Of a DNA stretch of 64,000 nt, positions 8,515 through 64,000 are shown in pieces. The notes beneath the pieces are model-generated. The model was given only the letters and a program-made list of their open reading frames with translations, was not told where the DNA came from and searched no databases. The DNA lies in NCBI RefSeq assembly GCF_964204645.1, contig NC_134028.1, forward strand, positions 1,116,001 to 1,180,000, read 5' to 3'. The position numbers were made by a program, and so were the translations under genes. Position 1 is the first letter of the stretch; every line of letters begins with the position of its first letter. This DNA comes from Tubulanus polymorphus (Eukaryota; Animalia; Nemertea).

Positions 8515-10224
<1,710 letters not shown>

Positions 10225-11500: not shown

Positions 11501-14500
11501 TTAAAGATTTGATTTCATGATGTTTTCAATGTCAAACATGCTGTTTGGAGACGATAGATTTTGTCCACCGTCGATGACGACAGTTTCACCAGTAATTAAT
11601 GATCCTCCGTCTGATAACAAGAACAACACGGCGTTAGCAATTTCATTTCTCTTTCCGGCTCGTTGTAACGGAATGTTTTTCATATACATATCAAATATCT
11701 CTCCTTTCAGTTGCTTTCCACCTGAAATAACAAATAATTCAGTATTTAGTGTAAGTTTTCAACAACTGAGGCCAGTAGAAGTCGAGAGCTGGTTAATGTT
11801 AACTATCAGTCACTATATCAGTAACGCACTGGTAAATTTTAAACATCTTGAGGTACACACCACACCACGGTATTCAACTGCACACCACAGTGATAACTAG
11901 CTGACCATATGCAGTTGTTTGGCCCGGCTGCCCTGCCACTCAACTATCATTTCTACCTCTTACCTAGTTTTCTGTAACCTTCCGTATCCGCAATAGGACC
12001 TGGAGCCACACCTACTACACGAATTCCAAGTGGTCCCCATTCACATGCCAAATGTTTCGTCAAAGCATCTAAAAAAACATAAAAGTTTCATGGTCATGGA
12101 ATTCTGAAGAATGGACTGTGATGTGTGAGGCATGCGATCACTTATGAAGGTCATCATTTCAAATGAAACAGTAGCATGCATCAAATCAATGACGAATATC
12201 CAGCAAACTACTAAACTACATAGGCCTACCTATTGCAGCTTTTGCGGCACCAGCATGAGCCTGTAATACATTGCCTCTGTAGTGCAATGTTGCCGAAATA
12301 TTCAGGATGACTCCTCCATTTTTCTGAAAAATACAAAGCCAAGAAATATCATAGCTATTAGTCAATGCTCTCAACACAGTACCGCTCAACTTTTAGTAAA
12401 CATTTTCTTCAAATGGATACCGTAGAAACCTAATAAAATGACCCCTCGGCGTATGGGTAATTCTATAGAAGAATGAAATGACTATTGATACATGTTTAGG
12501 AGGACCTGGTAATCAAATTTGAAATACGTAAATATTGGTTTTCAATCTCGGTCCCGGGTAGGGGGACAATAGTATAACACAAAAACCTCTTAAACTCATT
12601 GAAAACCACTCAGACACTCGCACAGACGAAAAAATTAAACATGAATAGTATTTATAACATATATATCCGTCAACAGATGTCACTGTCTGACGAAACCGGT
12701 ATGAAACACATTGTTTTTCGAATTTCTCTTTAACTGCAGTCGCGTATTTCATGAATATTGATTTGAAGAGGGCTGCACCACCTGTGAACGCACAATACTC
12801 TCTATAGCTCTGCAATAGCTTCCATATATAGGAACCCGCTCCACCGCGCAGGGTCATCACGAACAAACGGATATCGCGTTTTTGTCACGGACCAGACACT
12901 CGAAGGGTGTGTCTGTATTTACCGCGATTCGTGACTCTTATTCGTGGCTTATATCGAAAACAACTCGGATATCGATCTGGTTTTTAGGATTTACGCGTAC
13001 ATCTGATCGAAAGAAATTAAAATTGACGTAATAGTGAATTATCGTCTTTATTTATTGGAATGTATTCAACACTTCTGTAGAAACGAAAGGATATTTTAAG
13101 ACACACGCATCATATGGATGAGTTTGCGTAAACAAATACTAATCTTCTAGATGACTCTGCAACGCTGTATTTTATACCACTGACTACGAGTGAGATGTAA
13201 TGACTAATAAGACACAAACGAAAACAATGCACATATACTCGAGAGTTCGCTTAGAAAACAATCGAAAACCTTCCGAGTGTTTTAACGCCGAACCACACTG
13301 GTGCCGAGTGGTGAGATGGTAGACCGGAAAAAATAGAACGCGGAACCTATAAGCCAGAGTGTACTAGCAGCATCACTCTCTCTTCATACATAGAGACATG
13401 GAGAGGTCGCTGGCTTATTACAGGGAAACCTGAATCCAAATCATTTGTGATAACTACTTGTATTCAACGCATGAATACATTAACAGTATAAGTATGACTG
13501 CATGAAAGAGAAAACAAAGCATTGTGATATATACTTCAAATCATTCCTTGAAAGTTTTGACGGTTTATAAGTCTGTGATTCGGCGCGATTTCAATATGGA
13601 TAAAATCGATAATAATAATGGTTTGGAAACGTTGGACATCGACGTCAAACAGAAACTATTGAATCGGTTAAAACAGAACAGTTCGCCGCGATGCTTCGAT
13701 AAGATGACAAACCTGGAGGATAACTTACTACGAGCGGTCAGTACGAAATTCGACAAGATACACGAACAGAAACTGGAGGCGATCGGGATCCTCGAAGAGT
13801 TGAAACTACACGAGGACAACAGCATCAACAGCGAGAAGAATCGTCTGGCGAAAGAGCGCGAAAATAAAGCCGAACGAATCGAGAAATTAGAGAGGAACGT
13901 TCACGAGTTGAAACAATCGGTAGAATTTCATTTCAAATTGACGAGTATAATGCGCTGGAAAATAGACGGGTTGAATAAAGAGCTCGACGATACATCCGAC
14001 AAAATGGACGATTTATCGTCCGATTATTACGACATCAAACGCGAGCAAATCGAAGAGAAACTTCACAGCATGAAAAACAACCTGATCGTTTTCGGACTTT
14101 ACGAAGCGAATCACGAAGTGACAGAGAACGCCGTGCGTAATTTCTTCCAGGATCAGTTGAACGTTCGTTACGCTCATATGATAGAACTGTGCGACGTTTA
14201 CAGATTCGGTAAAATTGGCGGCCATCGCCCGCGTCCGATTCTCGTTAAATTCCAACATTTCCGCGACCGCGAACACGTGAAACGAATGGCGCCGAATTTA
14301 CGCAACACGTCGTACGCGATCAGCGAACAATTCCCGAAAGAAATCCAGGAATATCGGAAAAAGTTGTATCCGGTGATGAAAGAGGCGCGGCAACTCAACT
14401 GTAAGGTCGTGCTACGCGTCGATTGTTTGTGGATCGATGGTGAGTTATACGACGGCGCCGGGCCCGCGCCCATAGGGCTCAATAACGACTGGGATTATAC

Positions 14501-17500
14501 GGGCAGTAAGCCGTACTACCCGGGACGTAATCTAACAATGGATTACCGCGGTAGCGTACAAGATTTATCATATCACACAGACGATGATAACTATTACTGA
14601 ATTCTACTGATCTCAGAGAAATTGGGACCAAAGGAAAGAAAATCCTCATGATGAAAGATTTCAAGAGGGTATCGGACAATTAGGGAATCTTTCACTCAAG
14701 AATCTGATGGCTTGAAGGAAATGTGTTTTATTATATCAACCATCCAGGATTGTGCTTAATTCATGTGCGTGTGATTTTTTTTGAATCTATGTAGTATAAT
14801 ATATGAACAGGCAGGCTGTGTTATACAGTTCGGTGTGTGTGCAGTGGTTTAGACGGTTACAGTAGAGAATTCATAAAAACCATTTGTAAAAATCATTAAC
14901 CATTTCGTAACGGGTGATGGGATGGTTGCTTCTATTTGGGAAACATAGCGGGCCTGTATTTCCAGACCCCAGTAATATAATAAGTTTATTTAACCTATTC
15001 ATTTATGTAATTAGCTTCATCGAATCGATGAAGCAATAACTAGAAATTCTCATGAAAATATTCATTGAATATTAATCATCATAATCATCGATATAGAATC
15101 GGCAGCGTGATGGTGAACCATATCACATTCTAGGCTCATGTTTTATTTTTGAATTTCAGACGCATTTTTTTGCGCGAAATTTCAGTCTAAACACAAAATG
15201 TACCTCGTATTATTTACATCGGAGGTAATTATCGGGTCTGTGGATTTCTAACGAAGCTAGCTATGTTTAGCTTTACTGTTTCTAATTAACAAAAACCGTT
15301 CTTTCTTTGCTTTCATTGCGTTGATAAGTTAAAACATTCGTATAAACACACAAGAAAATACAGTCAGACTCAAGCTTTACGTAGTAGAAAATATTAAGAG
15401 AAATTCTTGATTCTCTGAAACTAGATCCCTAATCATTGAATGTGGGCTTTAATATGAACGCACCAGTACAGTGCGCGTTATAGATACATAGATTACCCTG
15501 GACTGTGCTGCTGATTTTATAGAACATAATTGTAATCTATAATCGATAAATCTATTCTCATTGAAGCAGCTGTATTTTATCATGAAATATATTGGTAATT
15601 TCCATATGAATACACAACATACAACACGAAATACATCTCCTATTCTCTACGTTCCACGGAGCAGAATATCTAAACGACTAACTTGTTTAGTTGAGACCAG
15701 TTTTTATCTATAATTTTCAAGCAAATATGACTTTGTAAGAAACAAGTGGTTTTAACGCCTGTAGCGGGCGGAGGGAGGGAGAAACCAATCTGCGTTCAGA
15801 GATATCAGCTCGCTTTGCAGCAGACGCTAAAAAACAGACAACATTCTTTCAGTGTTTAGTAATGTATTTTATACGTGGTTTTTGAATGACTTATGAAGTG
15901 AAAATAGCAATAATCTACAAATACTGTTAACTGCTGATATCGACGACATAAGAAATCAAATACAAATTTGAATTTCAAAAAAATGTGCCCGAAATTTCAA
16001 ACATTGAAGTATCGGTCACGATTAAAGCCTTGAAATGAAACAAAATGCCACTTTCCTCAATTCAGGACATGACTTAATCAATAACTGATAAGATACTGCC
16101 TAAAAATATATAGAGCGAAAACTTTGAACCTTTCGAAAAATATTGTTGTTGTAAAAGGGGTTTGAACGTGTGTAGTTATTATAATGATCACTATGTGATC
16201 GGGACTGCTATCAATCTCATGCATAATGTTCCTACTTCTATGTTACTATGTACTGTAAAATGCAAAATATATATCAATAGAAAATAGACCAATCTATTTT
16301 TTCACGGAATCAATATCATAAAATGCGCTCGACTCCTTTTTGCGAAATAAAAACCAGGTTATTTTACGTTGTTCTATCGTGTGTGCATTATTGCGTATGC
16401 TTCACTATTCATCATAGTCGAACTCGTTACTTCAGAAAACTGCCGGAAATCTCGGAAAACTGTTTCAACCAAAATTCTGTTGTATTTCCAGTGAATTATT
16501 GATCCCGGAGTTACACAGAAACCCTGAACCCAGTTCTACAGTAATCCTGAACCCAATTCTACAGAAACCCTGAACCCAGTAACAGAGAAACCCTGAACCC
16601 AGTCTTACAGTTGACTCTTCAATTAAAATTAGCTTATTTCCTATCTACTAACAATACAGTGAAATCTATGAAAGCTACAGAACTGGATCGTGTAGAATCA
16701 ACTGAAGTTGCAGCAGTCGGCCGAGTGTTATACAGGGGATTCTATTTCAATAATTGTGTAATCGGGGTTTAATTAATCTAATTTTGTGAATGGTCTATAG
16801 TTCATATGAAAGCTTGAACGAGAACATGCGGTCTGCAGTATGTAGGCTATCAGGTCTATACAATAGTGAATTGCTGAAACTCATTCCAATAATTGTCCGA
16901 AAACTGTGAAATCTATTAATAAATCAACTAGTAAGGCGACGAGCACAAACTACTAACACTCTGATGGCCTGTATATTATAAACAATAGTAATCTAGTTCA
17001 TACTACAACAGTCTCGTACGTATATGCAATAATTGTCAGTTAGTCTATATTTCATCTCAATGAAATCATTCTCTCGATGTCAATCATGTTTTATAATCTA
17101 CGTAAATGGACTACACACAAAAACTCCAGCTCATATATTCATGACGTGATGAGTTCTAAAATTTCAGATGTAGATTTTTCAGGTATTTCTATATGAACAT
17201 ACAGTAACCACACATACATACATATACACAGTGAACTGTACAGCAGTCACAGCTGTTCATGTAACTGACACTAACTATTGATCATTCAATATGACACAGC
17301 TTGCTCTTGTAGCGACCCCCGACCCGGGATTCTTTTACATATCGATATCATAGGAATCAGAAATTTCAAACGGACAGATGCAACAAAACAGGTCTAAAAT
17401 ATGGACACTGCATGTACTACTTACAGTACGTGGGCTTATTAGGTCAGCGAATCCAGATCCCTGATATTTCCCGGGGCCCTTGAACAAAAGTTCCTCAATC

Positions 17501-18795
17501 AAATTACGAGATATCCTCGGTATAAGTATAAACTCAATAGGTTCCTAGTGTCACTCATATCCAGCAAGGACAACAAGTGACCATGAACTCTAAGTCTCAG
17601 TTCGATGGTCTGTAAAAAAAGAAGAACCCACGGGCCAGCTTTCTGGACTAGTGTCATCTTTAGCACAGGGGTTAACTCAATTTGTTATTATCAATTCAGT
17701 TCACCCCAGGGTGAATTCAAAAATATCTACTTGGTAATGAATGATTTCTTCAAAACGTGATAAGTTTGTTCTACACATACCTGCATATACTTATCGAAGA
17801 CAGCCTTCGTAACATTGAAAGTTCCCATTGTGTCGATTTCCATCACTGTTTTAAAGGCATTAGACGACATGGACGCAACCGGACACAGAAAATTCCCAGC
17901 CGCATCTTAAAAATAGAGTTAAACACTTTATAGAAATCAGCGCAGCACTATTTGTAAGTTCATCATGTTATACTAAGTAGCACTTATGAGGGATCATTCA
18001 GCGGGTTAGTGGTTCAAAATGGGCAAATGTGTGTTTTGAATGATCCCTTATGGTATCACGTGCTGGAGAGCCTGTTATGGTTTCAGCCATCATTACGATA
18101 GTTGAATACTAACATTATCTAAATGAATTCAGAGAGAATTTCAAAAAGTCTATTCATTAAATGACAAATACTTACTGTTTACTAGATAATCAATTTTGTT
18201 GTATGTTTTCAATGTTTCATCAACTGCATTTATAACATCTTCAGGCTGAAAACGATCATTGGTTAACGCACTTTCTCTCTCGCATGATTCAACGTCAAAA
18301 TTAGTTTGCTTTCATCGATTCAAATGCTGTACCGGTTAAACTTACCTTCCTAACATCCATCTGTATCGTGTGACATTTCTGACCAGTTGTAGATTCTAAC
18401 TGTTTAGCTGCATTTTTCAGTTTCTCCAGATTTCGACTAGCGATGGCTATATCGCATTTGTGCCTGCAGAAAATACATCGCATCTCTCAGAGACTGGATG
18501 GAAATGGTTTAATTAAGGGCTAAAGATATACATACTTCATCAGCTGTTCAGCTATTGTATATCCAATACCGGATCCACCACCAGTAATCAATGCCACTTT
18601 ATTCCTGAATAATAAACAATTCATCATCGTCCTCAAAAATTACTGATCACTTACAAAAAATCTGATAAAATTAGGATATCTCTAGTATCTTATATATTTT
18701 AGGATATTTTTTAGTCATTAAATGTATCCTTACTTAAATAGGTCATCTTTGAAAATTGAAGCGCTGCTACATCGTTTAGCCACAGATTGAGACAT
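11501..18795 (-). CDS. DECR2: Peroxisomal 2,4-dienoyl-CoA reductase (DECR2-like), 8 coding exons, 287 aa
   Basis: Exons 18734-18795, 18536-18604, 18346-18463, 18176-18245, 17781-17905, 12230-12323, 11964-12068, 11501-11721 (864 nt). Motifs: [90 protein letters not shown]; C-terminal SNL is a PTS1-like tripeptide. Confidence 0.95.
13596..14600 (+). CDS. Stand-alone LINE ORF1p-like protein (coiled coil + RRM + CTD; L1TD1/Transposase_22-like), 334 aa, nested antisense in DECR2 intron 5
   Basis: Uninterrupted ORF (first ATG 13596; the ORF-track start 13524 is GTG). Heptad-rich N-half, then [52 protein letters not shown], the pattern of non-LTR retrotransposon type-II ORF1 proteins (recognised by eye). 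No EN/RT ORF downstream. Confidence 0.8.
   Translation: MDKIDNNNGLETLDIDVKQKLLNRLKQNSSPRCFDKMTNLEDNLLRAVSTKFDKIHEQKLEAIGILEELKLHEDNSINSEKNRLAKERENKAERIEKLERNVHELKQSVEFHFKLTSIMRWKIDGLNKELDDTSDKMDDLSSDYYDIKREQIEEKLHSMKNNLIVFGLYEANHEVTENAVRNFFQDQLNVRYAHMIELCDVYRFGKIGGHRPRPILVKFQHFRDREHVKRMAPNLRNTSYAISEQFPKEIQEYRKKLYPVMKEARQLNCKVVLRVDCLWIDGELYDGAGPAPIGLNNDWDYTGSKPYYPGRNLTMDYRGSVQDLSYHTDDDNYY
16515..16690. repeat. Degenerate MITE with tandemly amplified left end (4 x ~22 bp)
   Basis: AAACCCTGAACCCAGTTCTACAG-like unit x4, then body ending CAGAACTGGATC, resembling the termini of 62349-62452. Confidence 0.5.
17989..18048. mobile_element. 60-bp mini element, 12-bp TIR, 4-bp TSD
   Basis: TATG [AGGGATCATTCA ... 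TGAATGATCCCT] TATG in DECR2 intron 4. Confidence 0.55.
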
Positions 18796-20769: not shown

Positions 20770-21204
20770 GTCGGTACTCAGAATATTCATCTTAGTACTG
20801 GAGAGTTACCTCATTAATATTCATGAGTTGATGATAGTGCGCTGTGCTATTCGCTCCTGTTGCTAAGGGAATTTCAGCTATTTGCAACTCGATCGATCAA
20901 CGCGGTTCATTGTTAAACTATTCATCGACCCAATCTTGTTCGGAATTTCATGAAATAAATACATTCTGAAATAACCCGATCCATAAGTTACCTTATTTTA
21001 GTTAGTGGAATGCCGGATTTTAGCGTGACGTAATTCTACTTCCGATTTCCCCATGAACTTCAAACCGGACGTCAAGTGACGTCATTTTTTTCTGACTTTG
21101 TCAGCTAGTCAGAATCGGTTAAGAAAACACTTTGTAGTATCCACATATACGCGTTTACCAAAGGGACGTCTTCCGGGCGCCCGGCGTCCGTCTATAAAAT
21201 TATT

Positions 21205-21883
21205 ACCCTAGTGTTGGCCTGATCAATCAACGCAGTAACCCTAGTCTTGGCCTGATCAATAAACGCAGTAACCCTAGTGTTGGCCTGGTCAATAAACGCA
21301 GTAACCCTAGTGTTGGCCTAGTGAATAAACGCAGTAACCCTAGTCTTGGCCTGATCAATAAACGCAGTAACCCTAGTGTTGGCCTGGTCAATAAACGCAG
21401 TAACCCTAGTGTTGGCCTAGTGAATAAACGCAGTAACCCTAGTCTTGGCCTGATCAATAAACGCAGTAACCCTAGTGTTGGCCTGGTCAATAAACGCAGT
21501 AACCCTAGTGTTGGCCTAGTGAATAAACGCAGTAACCCTAGTCTTGGCCTGATCAATAAACGCAGTAACCCTAGTGTTGGCCTGTTTAATAAACGCAGTA
21601 ACCCTAGTGTTGGCCTAGTGAATAAACGCAGTAACCCTAGTGTTGGCCTAGTGAATAAACGCAGTAACCCTAGTGTTGGCCTGGTCAATAAACGCAGTAA
21701 CCCTAGTGTTGGCCTGCTGAATAAACGCAGTAACCCTAGTGTTGGCCTAGTGAATAAACGCAGTAACCCTAGTCTTGGCCTAGTGAATAAACGCAGTAAC
21801 CCTAGTGTTGGCCTGTTTAATAAACGCAGTAACCCTAGTGTTGGCCTGGGACAGGCAACCAGTCTACCCTAGTGTTGGCCTGG
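21205..21883. repeat. 33-bp minisatellite, ~20 units, upstream of DHRS7B
   Basis: Unit ACCCTAGT(G/C)TTGGCC-T(GATC/GGTC/AGTG/GTTT)-AATAAACGCAGTA; it produces the artefactual NKRSNPSVGLV and TRPTLGLLRLL ORFs. Confidence 0.96.
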
Positions 21884-22128: not shown

Positions 22129-23795
22129 ATGCATTTCTGTTGCTGCCCGTGTTTGACAACAATTCTTCCAGCCTCAATACTGGCGATTGTCATCTATAAA
22201 TGGATGACCAGAAAGCGTACATCAGTTACAGGAAAGCTGGTCTTCATCACAGGAGCGAGTTCTGGAGTTGGAAAAGGTAAACCGTCCATCGCCGTGGACC
22301 TGAATCACACTCTGCAACATTTCATAAATTCTAAACCTTGTTGAAAACATTTTTCAGCTTGCGCATTTTTATTCCACAAACTCGGAGCCAAAGTGGTTCT
22401 AGCTGCCAGGAATATCGATGCATTGATGTCAGTCAAAACAGATTTAATGAAGAAAAATGATGTCAGTTTTTCTAATAGCTCTATCCTATATATACAATTC
22501 CAGGAATGTTGAATTTTGATGATATCAAATTGATTACAGATGAATGAACCAATAGTTGTCCAGTTGGACCTGTGTGATATCGAGCAAATAACCGAAGTGG
22601 TGAAGAAAGTTGAAGATGAACACGGTCCTATTGACGTTCTAGTGAATAACGCTGGTATGAGTTATAGAGGTGAAATCATTGATACCGATATCACCGTCCA
22701 CCAGAAACTGATGCATGTCAATTACTTCGGTCATGTGGTTCTTACTAAGGGTACGTTTACTTATAGAGAAAGTTTGATGTTATTGACGATTAAAACAATA
22801 ATAGCCCGCCACAGTAGAAATATCGATATCGACCGTCTAGTGCTGCCCCCTACGTGTAACGATAGCGGGAAGAACTAATATAATACTCACTTGCCTATCA
22901 TGATTTATGTTTGAAATGTTTTTGTTTTATTGCAGCTGTCCTTCCTGCTATGATTAAACAGAAATCTGGTCATATCGTAGCAGTTAGTAGTGTACAAGGG
23001 AAGCTTTCGATACCGTTCAGATCAGCATGTGAGTTTAGTTTACACCGACACATCTTGAGTCCGTGTTGTAATGAATGATAGGATATCACTATTCGGAAGG
23101 GTTTCTTATTAAAACCCGGGTTTTGCGGAACATTCTGCATTGAACCCGTGTTTTGAGCGTAGCATAGATGTACAACTCAAGTCTTAAGGAGCATATTAGT
23201 TTATAGTTGAAATTGGAGTAAACTTCTCCTTCCATTCTTAGAGTGTGTGAAATGTTTATATTCTTGTGAGGTTAGTTACTGCTGTATCTTTGCACTGAAT
23301 CAATGAGTGTTTTTCGTTTTAGATTCTGCGTCGAAACACGCGACTCAAGCGTTTTTTGACTGTTTACGAGCTGAAGTTGCCCATCATAATATACAAGTGT
23401 CAGTCGTCAGTCCTGGCTACATCAAAACTAATTTATCACTGAACGCAATGACGGGAGATGGTTCATCTTACGCCAGTAATTAATTACTCATTATTTCGAT
23501 TTTTTAGATGTTAAAAATGCTTAGAAATCTTTACAATTTGTTTTCATCATAAATCAGTTAATTTTATCTGTTTTGCACTTTTCCAGTTGAAGATGCGACC
23601 ACTGCGTCTGGGATGGAACCATCAGTAGTTGCTGAGTCTATCGTCGACGCGATAGAGAGAAGTAAATATGATTTGATATTGGCCCCGATTCATCATCGAC
23701 TCGTCGTCTATTTCAGATCATTATTTCCTGCTCTCGTTGTTTATATTATGAATTTAAGAGCTGCTAAACAATTCAAACTGAAAAATAAATCATGA
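22129..23795 (+). CDS. DHRS7B: Dehydrogenase/reductase SDR family member 7B-like, 6 coding exons, 305 aa
   Basis: Exons 22129-22276, 22358-22461, 22540-22750, 22936-23028, 23323-23475, 23587-23795 (918 nt). N-terminal hydrophobic anchor, [76 protein letters not shown]. Confidence 0.93.
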
Positions 23796-62804: not shown

Positions 62805-64000
62805 GAATTCACAGGTCCCATACGATACCTTCATCGCTTACCCCCGTGCATAAACAGAATTCACAGGTCCCATACGATACCTTCATCGCTTACCCCCGTG
62901 CATAAACAGAATTCACAGGTCCCATACGATACCTTCATCGCTTACCCCCGTGCATAAACAGAATTCACAGGTCCCATACGATACCTTCATCGCTTACCCC
63001 CGTGCATAAACAGAATTCACAGGTCCCATACGATACCTTCATCGCTTACCCCCGTGCATAAACAGAATTCACAGGTCCCATACGATACCTTCATCGCTTA
63101 CCCCCGTGCATAAACAGAATTCACAGGTCCCATACGATACCTTCATCGCTTACCCCCGTGCATAAACAGAATTCACAGGTCCCATACGATACCTTCATCG
63201 CTTACCCCTACCCCGCCCACCCCGTGCATAAACAGAATTCACAGGTCCCATACGATACCTTCATCGCTTACCCCGTGCATCAACAGAATTCACAGGTCCC
63301 ATACGATACCTTCATCACTTACCCCTACCCCGCCCACCCCGTGCATAAACAGAATTCACAGGTCCCATACGATACCTTCATTACTTACCCCTACCCCGTC
63401 CACCCCGTGCATAAACAGAATTCACAGGTCCCTTACGATACCTTCATCACTTACACCCCCCCCCCGTGCATAAACAGAATTCACAGGTCCCATACGATAC
63501 CTTCATCACTTACACCCCCCCCCCCCCGTGCATAAACAGAATTCACAGGTCCCATACGATACCTTCATCACTTACCCCTACCCCGCCCACCCCGTGCATA
63601 AACAGAATTCACAGGTCCCATACGATACCTTCATCACTTACCCCTACCCCGCCCACCCCGTGCATAAACAGAATTCACAGGTCCCATACGTTACCTTCAT
63701 CACTTACCCCCGTGCATAAACAGAATTCACAGGTCCCATACGATACCTTCATCACTTACCCCTGTGCATAAACAGAATTCACAGGTCCCATACGATACCT
63801 TCATCACTTACCCCTACCCCGCCCACCCCGTGCATAAACAGAATTCACAGGTCCCATACGATACCTTCATCGCTTACCCCCGTGCATAAACAGAATTCAC
63901 AGGTCCCATACGATACCTTCATCACTTACCCCCGTGCATAAACAGAATTCACAGGTCCCATACGATACCTTCATCACTTACCCCTACCCCGCCCACCCCG
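62805..64000. repeat. 52/66-bp minisatellite running off the window end
   Basis: Unit GAATTCACAGGTCCCATACGATACCTTCATC(G/A)CTTACCCCCGTGCATAAACA; the long variant adds 14 nt (..CCCCTACCCCGCCCACCCC..). About 20 units visible. Confidence 0.96.

What the first reader, a model, noticed from the sequence alone, without database searches (positions are those of the whole stretch)
13596..14600. Intact solo LINE-ORF1 gene nested antisense in DECR2: candidate independent L1TD1-like domestication
Seen: a 334-codon stop-free ORF with coiled coil, RRM-like ([17 protein letters not shown]) and CTD-like ([24 protein letters not shown]) segments. It sits in the only long DECR2 coding-region intron (12324-17780; the others are 60-270 nt). 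No ORF2 (endonuclease/RT) follows, and its CG-rich codons resemble the host actin and ZMIZ exons. Known: LINE copies are normally 5'-truncated, so they lose ORF1 first; mammalian L1TD1 is a host gene domesticated from L1 ORF1. Inference: ORF1 kept intact without ORF2 suggests a host-maintained RNA-binding or condensate protein, perhaps a retrotransposon modulator. The alternative is a non-autonomous ORF1-only (HAL1-like) element.
Basis: partly seen in the sequence, partly recalled or inferred. Interest (0 to 1): 0.78.

Follow-up and report, generated by a model that had tools for sequence, protein, structure and literature searches.

The report
Ribbon worm's likely tamed retrotransposon gene
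Inside an intron of a ribbon worm's fat-metabolism gene lies an intact gene for a retrotransposon RNA-packaging protein, with no extra copies or copying enzyme detected; its mostly silent variation suggests the worm likely keeps it as its own gene, as mammals did with L1TD1.

Summary
A 334-codon ORF (13596-14600, +) lies antisense in the 5,457-nt DECR2 intron, whose splicing is shown by RNA-like contigs. The host DECR2 exon matches the nemertean Tubulanus polymorphus at 100%. The predicted fold is coiled coil-RRM-CTD, best matching human L1 ORF1p (E 1.4e-8, Z 13.2), and a trimer model passes its controls. It belongs to a large invertebrate type II ORF1 family, not specifically L1.

For host retention: genomic depth is single-copy, no diverged copies appear, no ORF2, tail or target duplication was found, and 9 of 12 allelic SNPs are synonymous (4.5 expected, P about 0.005). 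One RNA-like run has faint coverage confined to 12739-16279, ending before an AATAAA. It groups (96/93) with two unnamed proteins that share its acidity and C-terminal motif.

Against or open: nonsynonymous density is not significantly below flanking DNA (P 0.12), RNA depth is at most 1/20 of DECR2 with unknown strand, and no syntenic ortholog could be tested.

Verdict: likely an independent invertebrate ORF1 domestication (0.62); function untested. The scan earlier noted a similar fungal case, not this gene.

The parts
13596..14600 (+). Intact single-exon ORF, 334 aa, type II ORF1p-like protein (P0001); ATG with A at -3 and G at +4
13722..14069 (+). Long helix / predicted trimeric coiled coil, residues 43-158 (net charge -5)
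   Evidence: AlphaFold2 helix 43-158; trimer contacts at residues 77-155; charge
14070..14333 (+). ORF1p-type RRM, residues about 159-246
   Evidence: VIA-align Z 11.2 to 2w7a over model 157-245; Foldseek
14334..14465 (+). ORF1p C-terminal domain, residues about 247-290, with the family-invariant R254
   Evidence: 2yko aligned over model 115-289
14448..14477 (+). Y-x-G-x-G-P-x-P-[IL]-type motif after the CTD, matched only by P0001, P0020 and P0021 among all fetched proteins
14466..14597 (+). Low-confidence acidic, Tyr/Asp-rich tail, residues 291-334
   Evidence: pLDDT <50 for 299-334; net charge -4
12631..13595 (+). CpG-rich upstream stretch (o/e 1.37); inferred promoter and 5' UTR
   Evidence: X2 coverage starts at 12739; role inferred
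14601..16351 (+). AT-rich downstream stretch, inferred 3' UTR, ending at AATAAA 16346-16351; no ORF2 trace
   Evidence: X2 coverage ends at 16279; role inferred
12324..17780 (-). Host DECR2 intron, 5,457 nt, that holds the gene
   Evidence: spliced joint 12323-17781 in run X2
12230..12323 (-). DECR2 exon downstream of the intron
17781..17905 (-). DECR2 exon upstream of the intron

Best explanation
This is an intact ORF1p-like gene nested antisense in a DECR2 intron, with no second copy and no ORF2 detected, and it is likely an old LINE ORF1 that the ribbon worm now keeps as its own gene. Shown: intact frame, intron position, single-copy read depth, and an excess of synonymous alleles. Predicted: a coiled coil-RRM-CTD fold and a coiled-coil homotrimer. 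Inferred: a full-length type II-ORF1 element inserted, the 3 kb behind ORF1 decayed or was lost, and a weak ~3.6-kb + strand mRNA runs from the CpG-rich upstream stretch to the AATAAA at 16346. Untested mechanism I commit to: the protein is acidic where its family is basic, so it would bind RNA more weakly and act by trimerising with or beside the ORF1p of related active LINEs, changing how their RNA particles or condensates form. I give that mechanism about 0.4 if the gene is domesticated; a general RNA or condensate role is the other option.
For: Fold: the ten best Foldseek rows are human L1 ORF1p (best E 1.4e-8); VIA-align Z 13.2, rmsd 3.3 over 169 residues to 2yko, next unrelated row 7.9. 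Trimer: score 0.43 against best control 0.01, contacts agree >=88%, pLDDT >=77. On eukaryotes that mark was reached by 17 of 29 solved pairs and 0 of 30 single chains, and the pass may reflect likeness to the solved ORF1p trimer. Copy number: X1 contig depth is 35.7 over the ORF against 39.7-41.1 on flanking contigs; of 197 X5 reads laid at 80% likeness, 0 were under 90% alike and none gave a listed loose end. Selection: 9 of 12 SNPs seen across five runs are synonymous, 4.5 expected by change type and CpG context, P 0.004-0.005; pN/pS 0.08 by unweighted sites; no indel or stop allele listed. No joint skipping the ORF appears in any laid run. RNA: X2 intronic coverage lies in 12739-16279 at depth 3-13, with zero in bins 12364-12604, 16461-17424 and 17907-18147. 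Divergence from its family: pI 6.16, fifth lowest of 104 full-length members, median 9.2. It groups with acidic P0020 and P0021 at 96/93 in a 46-row tree built without the shared motif.
Against: The SNP set is small and pooled. X1 alone gives 5 of 8 synonymous (P 0.07). Nonsynonymous density 3/805 against flanking non-coding 20/2321 is not significant (P 0.12), and 0 indels in the ORF has P 0.18. Synonymous density is above the flanks, with 5 of 9 at CpG, so mutation bias carries part of the signal. X5 depth over the ORF is 11.7 against 8.5 on seven flanking bins, 1.4-fold; depth tracks GC (rho 0.51), but a partial second copy is not strictly excluded. The RNA signal is 20-80 times below DECR2, has a gap at 13282-13924, has no strand and comes from one run. 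Run X8 shows spliced DECR2 at 12.6 and nothing on the ORF. P0001 is absent from the protein collection although the host's DECR2 is annotated there. P0020 and P0021 are only 28-31% identical and have no known species or context. Core basic charge is only moderately low (+5 against a median of +9).
Confidence: 0.62

Rival explanations
1. It is a selfish ORF1-only retroelement (HAL1-like: internal promoter, ORF1, long 3' UTR) or the remnant of a low-copy LINE that inserted fairly recently and has simply not decayed yet.
For: The layout (about 1 kb CpG-rich leader, 1 kb ORF1, 1.75 kb trailer with AATAAA) fits such an element. The family is large and mobile-like: 4,820 relatives, with multi-locus clusters in Ostrea and Porites. 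ORF1-like proteins fused to IMPACT/UPF0029 or NADAR domains exist, so unusual ORF1 units occur. Expression is faint and nonsynonymous depletion against the flanks is not significant.
Against: A recent insertion needs sister copies, and none above 80% likeness was seen at about 10x depth. There is no run of 8 or more A downstream and only scattered 10-12 nt repeats that do not bracket the unit. A fixed selfish copy should gather alleles neutrally, yet 9 of 12 are synonymous.
Confidence: 0.24
2. It is a host-kept gene, but an ancient one shared with other lophotrochozoans (P0020 and P0021 as orthologs) that moved into this intron later and has no link left to transposon control.
For: The three proteins form a starred clade, share a unique C-terminal motif and low pI, and the two relatives sit on contigs of 1,235 and 1,357 nt, the size of an mRNA.
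Against: The relatives' species and context are unknown; their N-termini differ from P0001; long branches can attract, and the bootstrap had not settled (correlation 0.966). A profile of the three found no further member of the clade among 5 hits.
Confidence: 0.09
3. The synonymous excess is an artefact of reads from a collapsed near-identical paralog, so the variants record selection on the element's lineage and not on this locus.
For: X5 depth over the ORF is 1.4 times the flanks; 44 of 197 reads are 95-99% alike.
Against: One X1 contig of 3,372 nt carries 8 ORF variants and runs through the flanks at single-copy depth. The variants sit at heterozygote-like shares in X5 and recur in other samples.
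Confidence: 0.05

Closest known systems
L1TD1 (eutherian gene from L1 ORF1; PMC4161310 passages, PMC11014241 and PMC11925450 abstracts)
   Same: ORF1p-derived coding sequence without ORF2. L1TD1 has a glutamate-rich domain that helps disperse RNP condensates, and it associates with L1 ORF1p; P0001 is also acidic for its family.
   Different: Different phylum and an independent origin (15-16% identity to human ORF1p in the structural alignments). One ORF1 unit in one exon, against two ORF1-derived coding exons in L1TD1 (PMC12129022 passage). Nested antisense in a host intron. Orthologs, expression and function are not established here.
Lyosin, L1-RFX5, NUP42-L1, USP4-L1 fusion isoforms (PMC12129022, passages)
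   Same: An ORF1-coding segment inside a host gene, most of them under purifying selection.
   Different: Those are sense exons spliced to the host protein. This ORF is antisense to DECR2, has its own ATG and stop, and no joint links it to any exon.
Type II (Tnp22-like, 2yko) ORF1 of L1, CR1, L2 and R1 elements (PMC4120745, first sixth and passages)
   Same: Coiled coil, one RRM and CTD in the same order; 83% of 41 well-conserved family columns are kept.
   Different: No ORF2 follows; no dispersed copies; acidic overall; donor clade cannot be named without ORF2.
HAL1 half-L1 elements (Bao and Jurka 2010; paper not held; features recalled)
   Same: ORF1 alone, with a long trailer in place of ORF2.
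   Different: HAL1s are repeated, mobilised elements; no copies, tail or target duplication were found here.

Membership tests
Type II LINE ORF1p (Tnp22/2yko-like) | Coiled coil followed by one RRM and a CTD | tested here: met
Type II LINE ORF1p (Tnp22/2yko-like) | Homotrimer through the coiled coil | tested here: inconclusive
   Model passes (0.43 against best control 0.01; one of three runs scored 0.04) but may be from likeness to the solved trimer
Type II LINE ORF1p (Tnp22/2yko-like) | Sequence match to Pfam Transposase_22 or to human ORF1p | tested here: inconclusive
   No Pfam hit for P0001; the family profile hits 2yko at E 1.5e-5 and the RRM-CTD construct 2ldy at E 2.1e-4, among many coiled-coil hits
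Type II LINE ORF1p (Tnp22/2yko-like) | Binds RNA and chaperones nucleic acids | not testable with these tools
   R203, R213 and R254 are kept, H202 is Tyr, core charge +5 against median +9; needs an assay
Autonomous LINE element | ORF2 with endonuclease and reverse transcriptase downstream | tested here: not met
   0 families in 12 of 12 frames; longest downstream frame 73 aa; a very old decayed ORF2 would be missed
HAL1-like non-autonomous element | Dispersed copies in the genome | tested here: not met
   Flat X1 depth; 0 of 197 X5 reads under 90% alike; copies under 80% alike not tested, no genome held
HAL1-like non-autonomous element | 3' tail and target-site duplication | tested here: not met
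   No A run of 8 or more; only scattered 10-12 nt repeats; old insertions lose these marks
Domesticated ORF1 gene (L1TD1 kind) | Single fixed locus with intact frame | tested here: met
   Present in samples S1, S2 and S3 with no frame-breaking allele listed and no empty-site joint; the window may derive from S1 or S2
Domesticated ORF1 gene (L1TD1 kind) | Purifying selection on the protein | tested here: inconclusive
   9 of 12 synonymous, P about 0.005, but P 0.12 against flanking DNA in X1 alone; within-species data only
Domesticated ORF1 gene (L1TD1 kind) | Own transcript | tested here: inconclusive
   Faint unstranded X2 coverage at 12739-16279; none in X8
Domesticated ORF1 gene (L1TD1 kind) | Syntenic orthologs in related species | not testable with these tools
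   No animal genome collection is on hand; two candidate relatives lack context
L1TD1 itself (ortholog) | Eutherian origin, two ORF1-derived coding exons | tested here: not met
   Nemertean host; one ORF1 unit in one exon

The most novel reading that the evidence does not exclude
P0001, P0020 and P0021 mark an ancient, undescribed family of acidic ORF1p-derived host genes in spiralian or other invertebrates. They would join LINE ORF1p trimers and dissolve or poison retrotransposon RNA particles: a convergent invertebrate L1TD1 and a protein-level LINE restriction factor outside vertebrates.
Probability: 0.2. Interest if true: 0.8.

Novelty: new variant of a known kind. Interest (0 to 1): 0.52.

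Why it matters
Papers from 2014 and 2024 call L1TD1 the only known host gene made from L1 coding sequence, and the 2025 additions are vertebrate fusion exons (PMC4161310, PMC11014241, PMC12129022). My searches listed no invertebrate stand-alone case. An independent one in a ribbon worm would show that keeping ORF1 without ORF2 recurs across animals. If the shift to an acidic protein is also convergent, it gives a second system in which to test whether tamed ORF1 proteins restrain LINEs, help them, or regulate host RNA granules, a point on which the L1TD1 papers differ.

Tried and rejected
No whole genome is held, so copies were counted from read depth only. Single-sequence Pfam and PDB searches gave only coiled-coil noise. 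Runs X3 and X4 cover the ORF at depth 12-38 and first looked like expression; rejected, because they show no spliced joint, carry chimeric ends (one maps to 19317) and bear the Omni-C bridge (bridge named in bioRxiv 10.64898/2026.09.07.749830, one passage), so they are DNA. No holder was on record as RNA; X7 laid nothing at all: neither counts as evidence. The search for related loci: A1 could not be used on metagenomes; 387 viral stretches matched a pattern and 0 were relatives; A2 gave 1 locus of 410 stretches, L001, not of the P0001 clade as far as tested. The ESM Atlas gave unnamed or Baculo_FP_2nd (PF25298) clusters at 0.90-0.94, leads only. No second ORF1-like segment in the window. Rfam: 0 matches in the intron. 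The sigma-70 scan does not apply to an animal and was not used. A Lyosin-type fusion to DECR2 was rejected: opposite strand, no joint. Tree rows left out: one search used 46 of 148 rows; one search used all 148 but only the quick method. The HAL1 paper was not held; no supplements were read.
Full report
Observation. The ORF at 13596-14600 (+) gives 334 residues and a stop. Its stop-free frame of 364 codons is far beyond 30 shuffles of the window, whose longest was 169. Contigs of run X2 splice 12323 to 17781 at depth 254 with GT..AG ends on the minus strand, so the 5,457-nt DECR2 intron is real; five other joints measure 72-270 nt. The last DECR2 exon is 100% identical to a protein named peroxisomal 2,4-dienoyl-CoA reductase-like of Tubulanus polymorphus, so the host is that nemertean or one indistinguishable at this exon.

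What the protein is. Pfam and PDB searches with the single sequence show only coiled-coil noise. An exhaustive search finds 4,820 relatives at E<=0.001; the best 150 are 28-46% identical. Of 20 looked up for names, three clusters name a species: Ostrea, Porites and Paramuricea. AlphaFold2 on a 148-row alignment gives a helix at 43-158, an RRM and a CTD (mean pLDDT 82). The ten best Foldseek rows are human L1 ORF1p (best E 1.4e-8). VIA-align gives Z 13.2, rmsd 3.3 over 169 residues to 2yko, with the next unrelated fold at 7.9. Three copies of residues 40-295 score 0.43 against a best control of 0.01, with heptad contacts over 77-155; one of three runs scored 0.04, and the pass may come from likeness to the solved trimer. 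This is a type II ORF1. That type occurs in L1, CR1, L2 and R1 elements (PMC4120745, first sixth and passages), so the donor clade cannot be named.

Is it still a transposon? Twelve frames of the flanking intron, read with X at stops, match no Pfam family at E<=1. I had no positive control, and a very old ORF2 would be missed. The 3,180 nt downstream are about ORF2-sized (recalled size), but their longest + frame is 73 aa, at the shuffle median. There is no run of 8 A and no repeat that brackets the unit. No genome is held, so copy number comes from reads. X1 covers 13189-16514 in one contig at depth 35.7, against 39.7-41.1 on neighbours. Of 197 X5 reads laid at 80% likeness, none is under 90% alike and no loose end is listed, while a true repeat at 17534-17682 shows both raised depth and many loose ends. 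X5 depth over the ORF is 11.7 against 8.5 on seven flanking bins; depth tracks GC (rho 0.51, three repeat bins left out). No run shows a joint that skips the ORF.

Selection. Searches list 12 different SNPs in the ORF and no indel or stop (one search hid 61 weaker rows; 28 of the 29 differences of the X1 contig were visible). Nine are synonymous; 4.5 are expected when each change is placed at random by base and CpG context, P 0.004-0.005. X5 alone gives 6 of 8 (P 0.011); X1 alone gives 5 of 8 (P 0.07). Against this, nonsynonymous density in X1 (3/805) is not significantly below flanking non-coding DNA (20/2321, P 0.12), synonymous density is above it (P 0.04), and the lack of indels has P 0.18. 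The signal is real but modest. Selection among alleles of one fixed locus is selection on the host, which is why it matters (inference).

Expression. No holder is on record as RNA. X2 behaves as RNA because it holds spliced DECR2. Its six listed intronic contigs cover 2,450 nt, all within 12739-16279, at depth 3-13; bins 12364-12604, 16461-17424 and the next intron (17907-18147) are empty. Coverage stops 67 nt before an AATAAA at 16346, is highest near that end, and includes the AT-rich part where DNA depth is lowest. That fits a weak + strand transcript of about 3.6 kb better than DECR2 pre-mRNA (inference). The strand is unknown, there is a gap at 13282-13924, and the ORF contig (10.1) is no deeper than the others. 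X8 holds spliced DECR2 at 12.6 and nothing on the ORF. X3 and X4 are Omni-C DNA by their bridge sequence and say nothing on expression. The protein is not in the collection although its host gene is.

Relatives. P0001 groups with P0020 and P0021: SH-aLRT 97 in a quick tree of all 148 rows, and 96/93 in a careful tree of 46 rows cut before the shared motif, with an unsettled bootstrap. Only these three match a Y-x-G-x-G-P-x-P-type motif after the CTD. All three are acidic (pI 6.16, 5.81, 5.21; median 9.2 of 104 full-length members). The two relatives are unnamed singletons on contigs of 1,235 and 1,357 nt and 28-31% identical. They may be orthologs, paralogs or ORF1s of a related element; I could not see their context.

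Mechanism. Most likely a LINE with a type II ORF1 inserted into the DECR2 intron long ago, lost ORF2, and its ORF1 is now kept by the host (0.62). The conserved part of human ORF1p is strongly basic in its RNA clefts and needs a basic N-terminus (PMC5940361, passages). P0001 has net charge -5, core charge +5 against a median of +9, and Tyr for the conserved His202, but keeps R203, R213 and R254. I infer weaker RNA packaging with trimerisation kept, and so a role in altering the RNA particles of related LINEs. L1TD1 offers the precedent: it associates with ORF1p and promotes retrotransposition in one study (PMC11925450, abstract) and dissolves condensates through its glutamate-rich domain in another (PMC11014241, abstract). 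This step is untested. The main rival is an ORF1-only selfish element or young remnant (0.24).

Novelty. It works like L1TD1 as a kind of event but is not its ortholog, and it is not a Lyosin-type fusion (PMC12129022, passages). Searches listed no invertebrate stand-alone ORF1 gene; I saw listings only for most hits, and subscription papers and Repbase are not covered. The scan's notes hold no match to this sequence and one similar fungal case with a different ORF1 type (unchecked). Verdict: real, likely domesticated, not proven without orthologs; new variant of a known kind; interest 0.52.

Noticed in passing
L001:1929-2735: ORF1p-like RRM-CTD fused to a UPF0029 (IMPACT/YigZ-type) domain, E 9.7e-16, on a 3.3-kb metagenome contig; too little DNA follows to tell whether an ORF2 is present.
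   Followed up: partly
protein P0151 (no locus): ORF1p-like protein with a C-terminal NADAR domain, E 7.2e-37: this ORF1 family picks up enzyme-like domains.
   Followed up: partly
window 17534-17682: Short multi-copy repeat in the same intron: X5 depth about 21 and many loose ends; looks like a small dispersed element.
   Followed up: no
window 16515-16629: 23-nt tandem repeat of about 4-5 units; X1 has an allele 46 nt shorter.
   Followed up: no
window 14700-16000: X5 depth drops to 2-4 against 8-12 nearby; low GC or a diverged second haplotype.
   Followed up: no
window 9163-10224: Actin coding exon on +, CpG o/e 1.34; host coding DNA is CpG-rich and uses CGN for most Arg.
   Followed up: partly
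window 22534-22878: Exon of a second short-chain dehydrogenase on + (weak tblastn match to DECR2), divergent from DECR2.
   Followed up: no
window 21198-21872, 2467-2757, 63062-63771: Stop-free frames made of tandem repeats; likely minisatellites, not genes.
   Followed up: no
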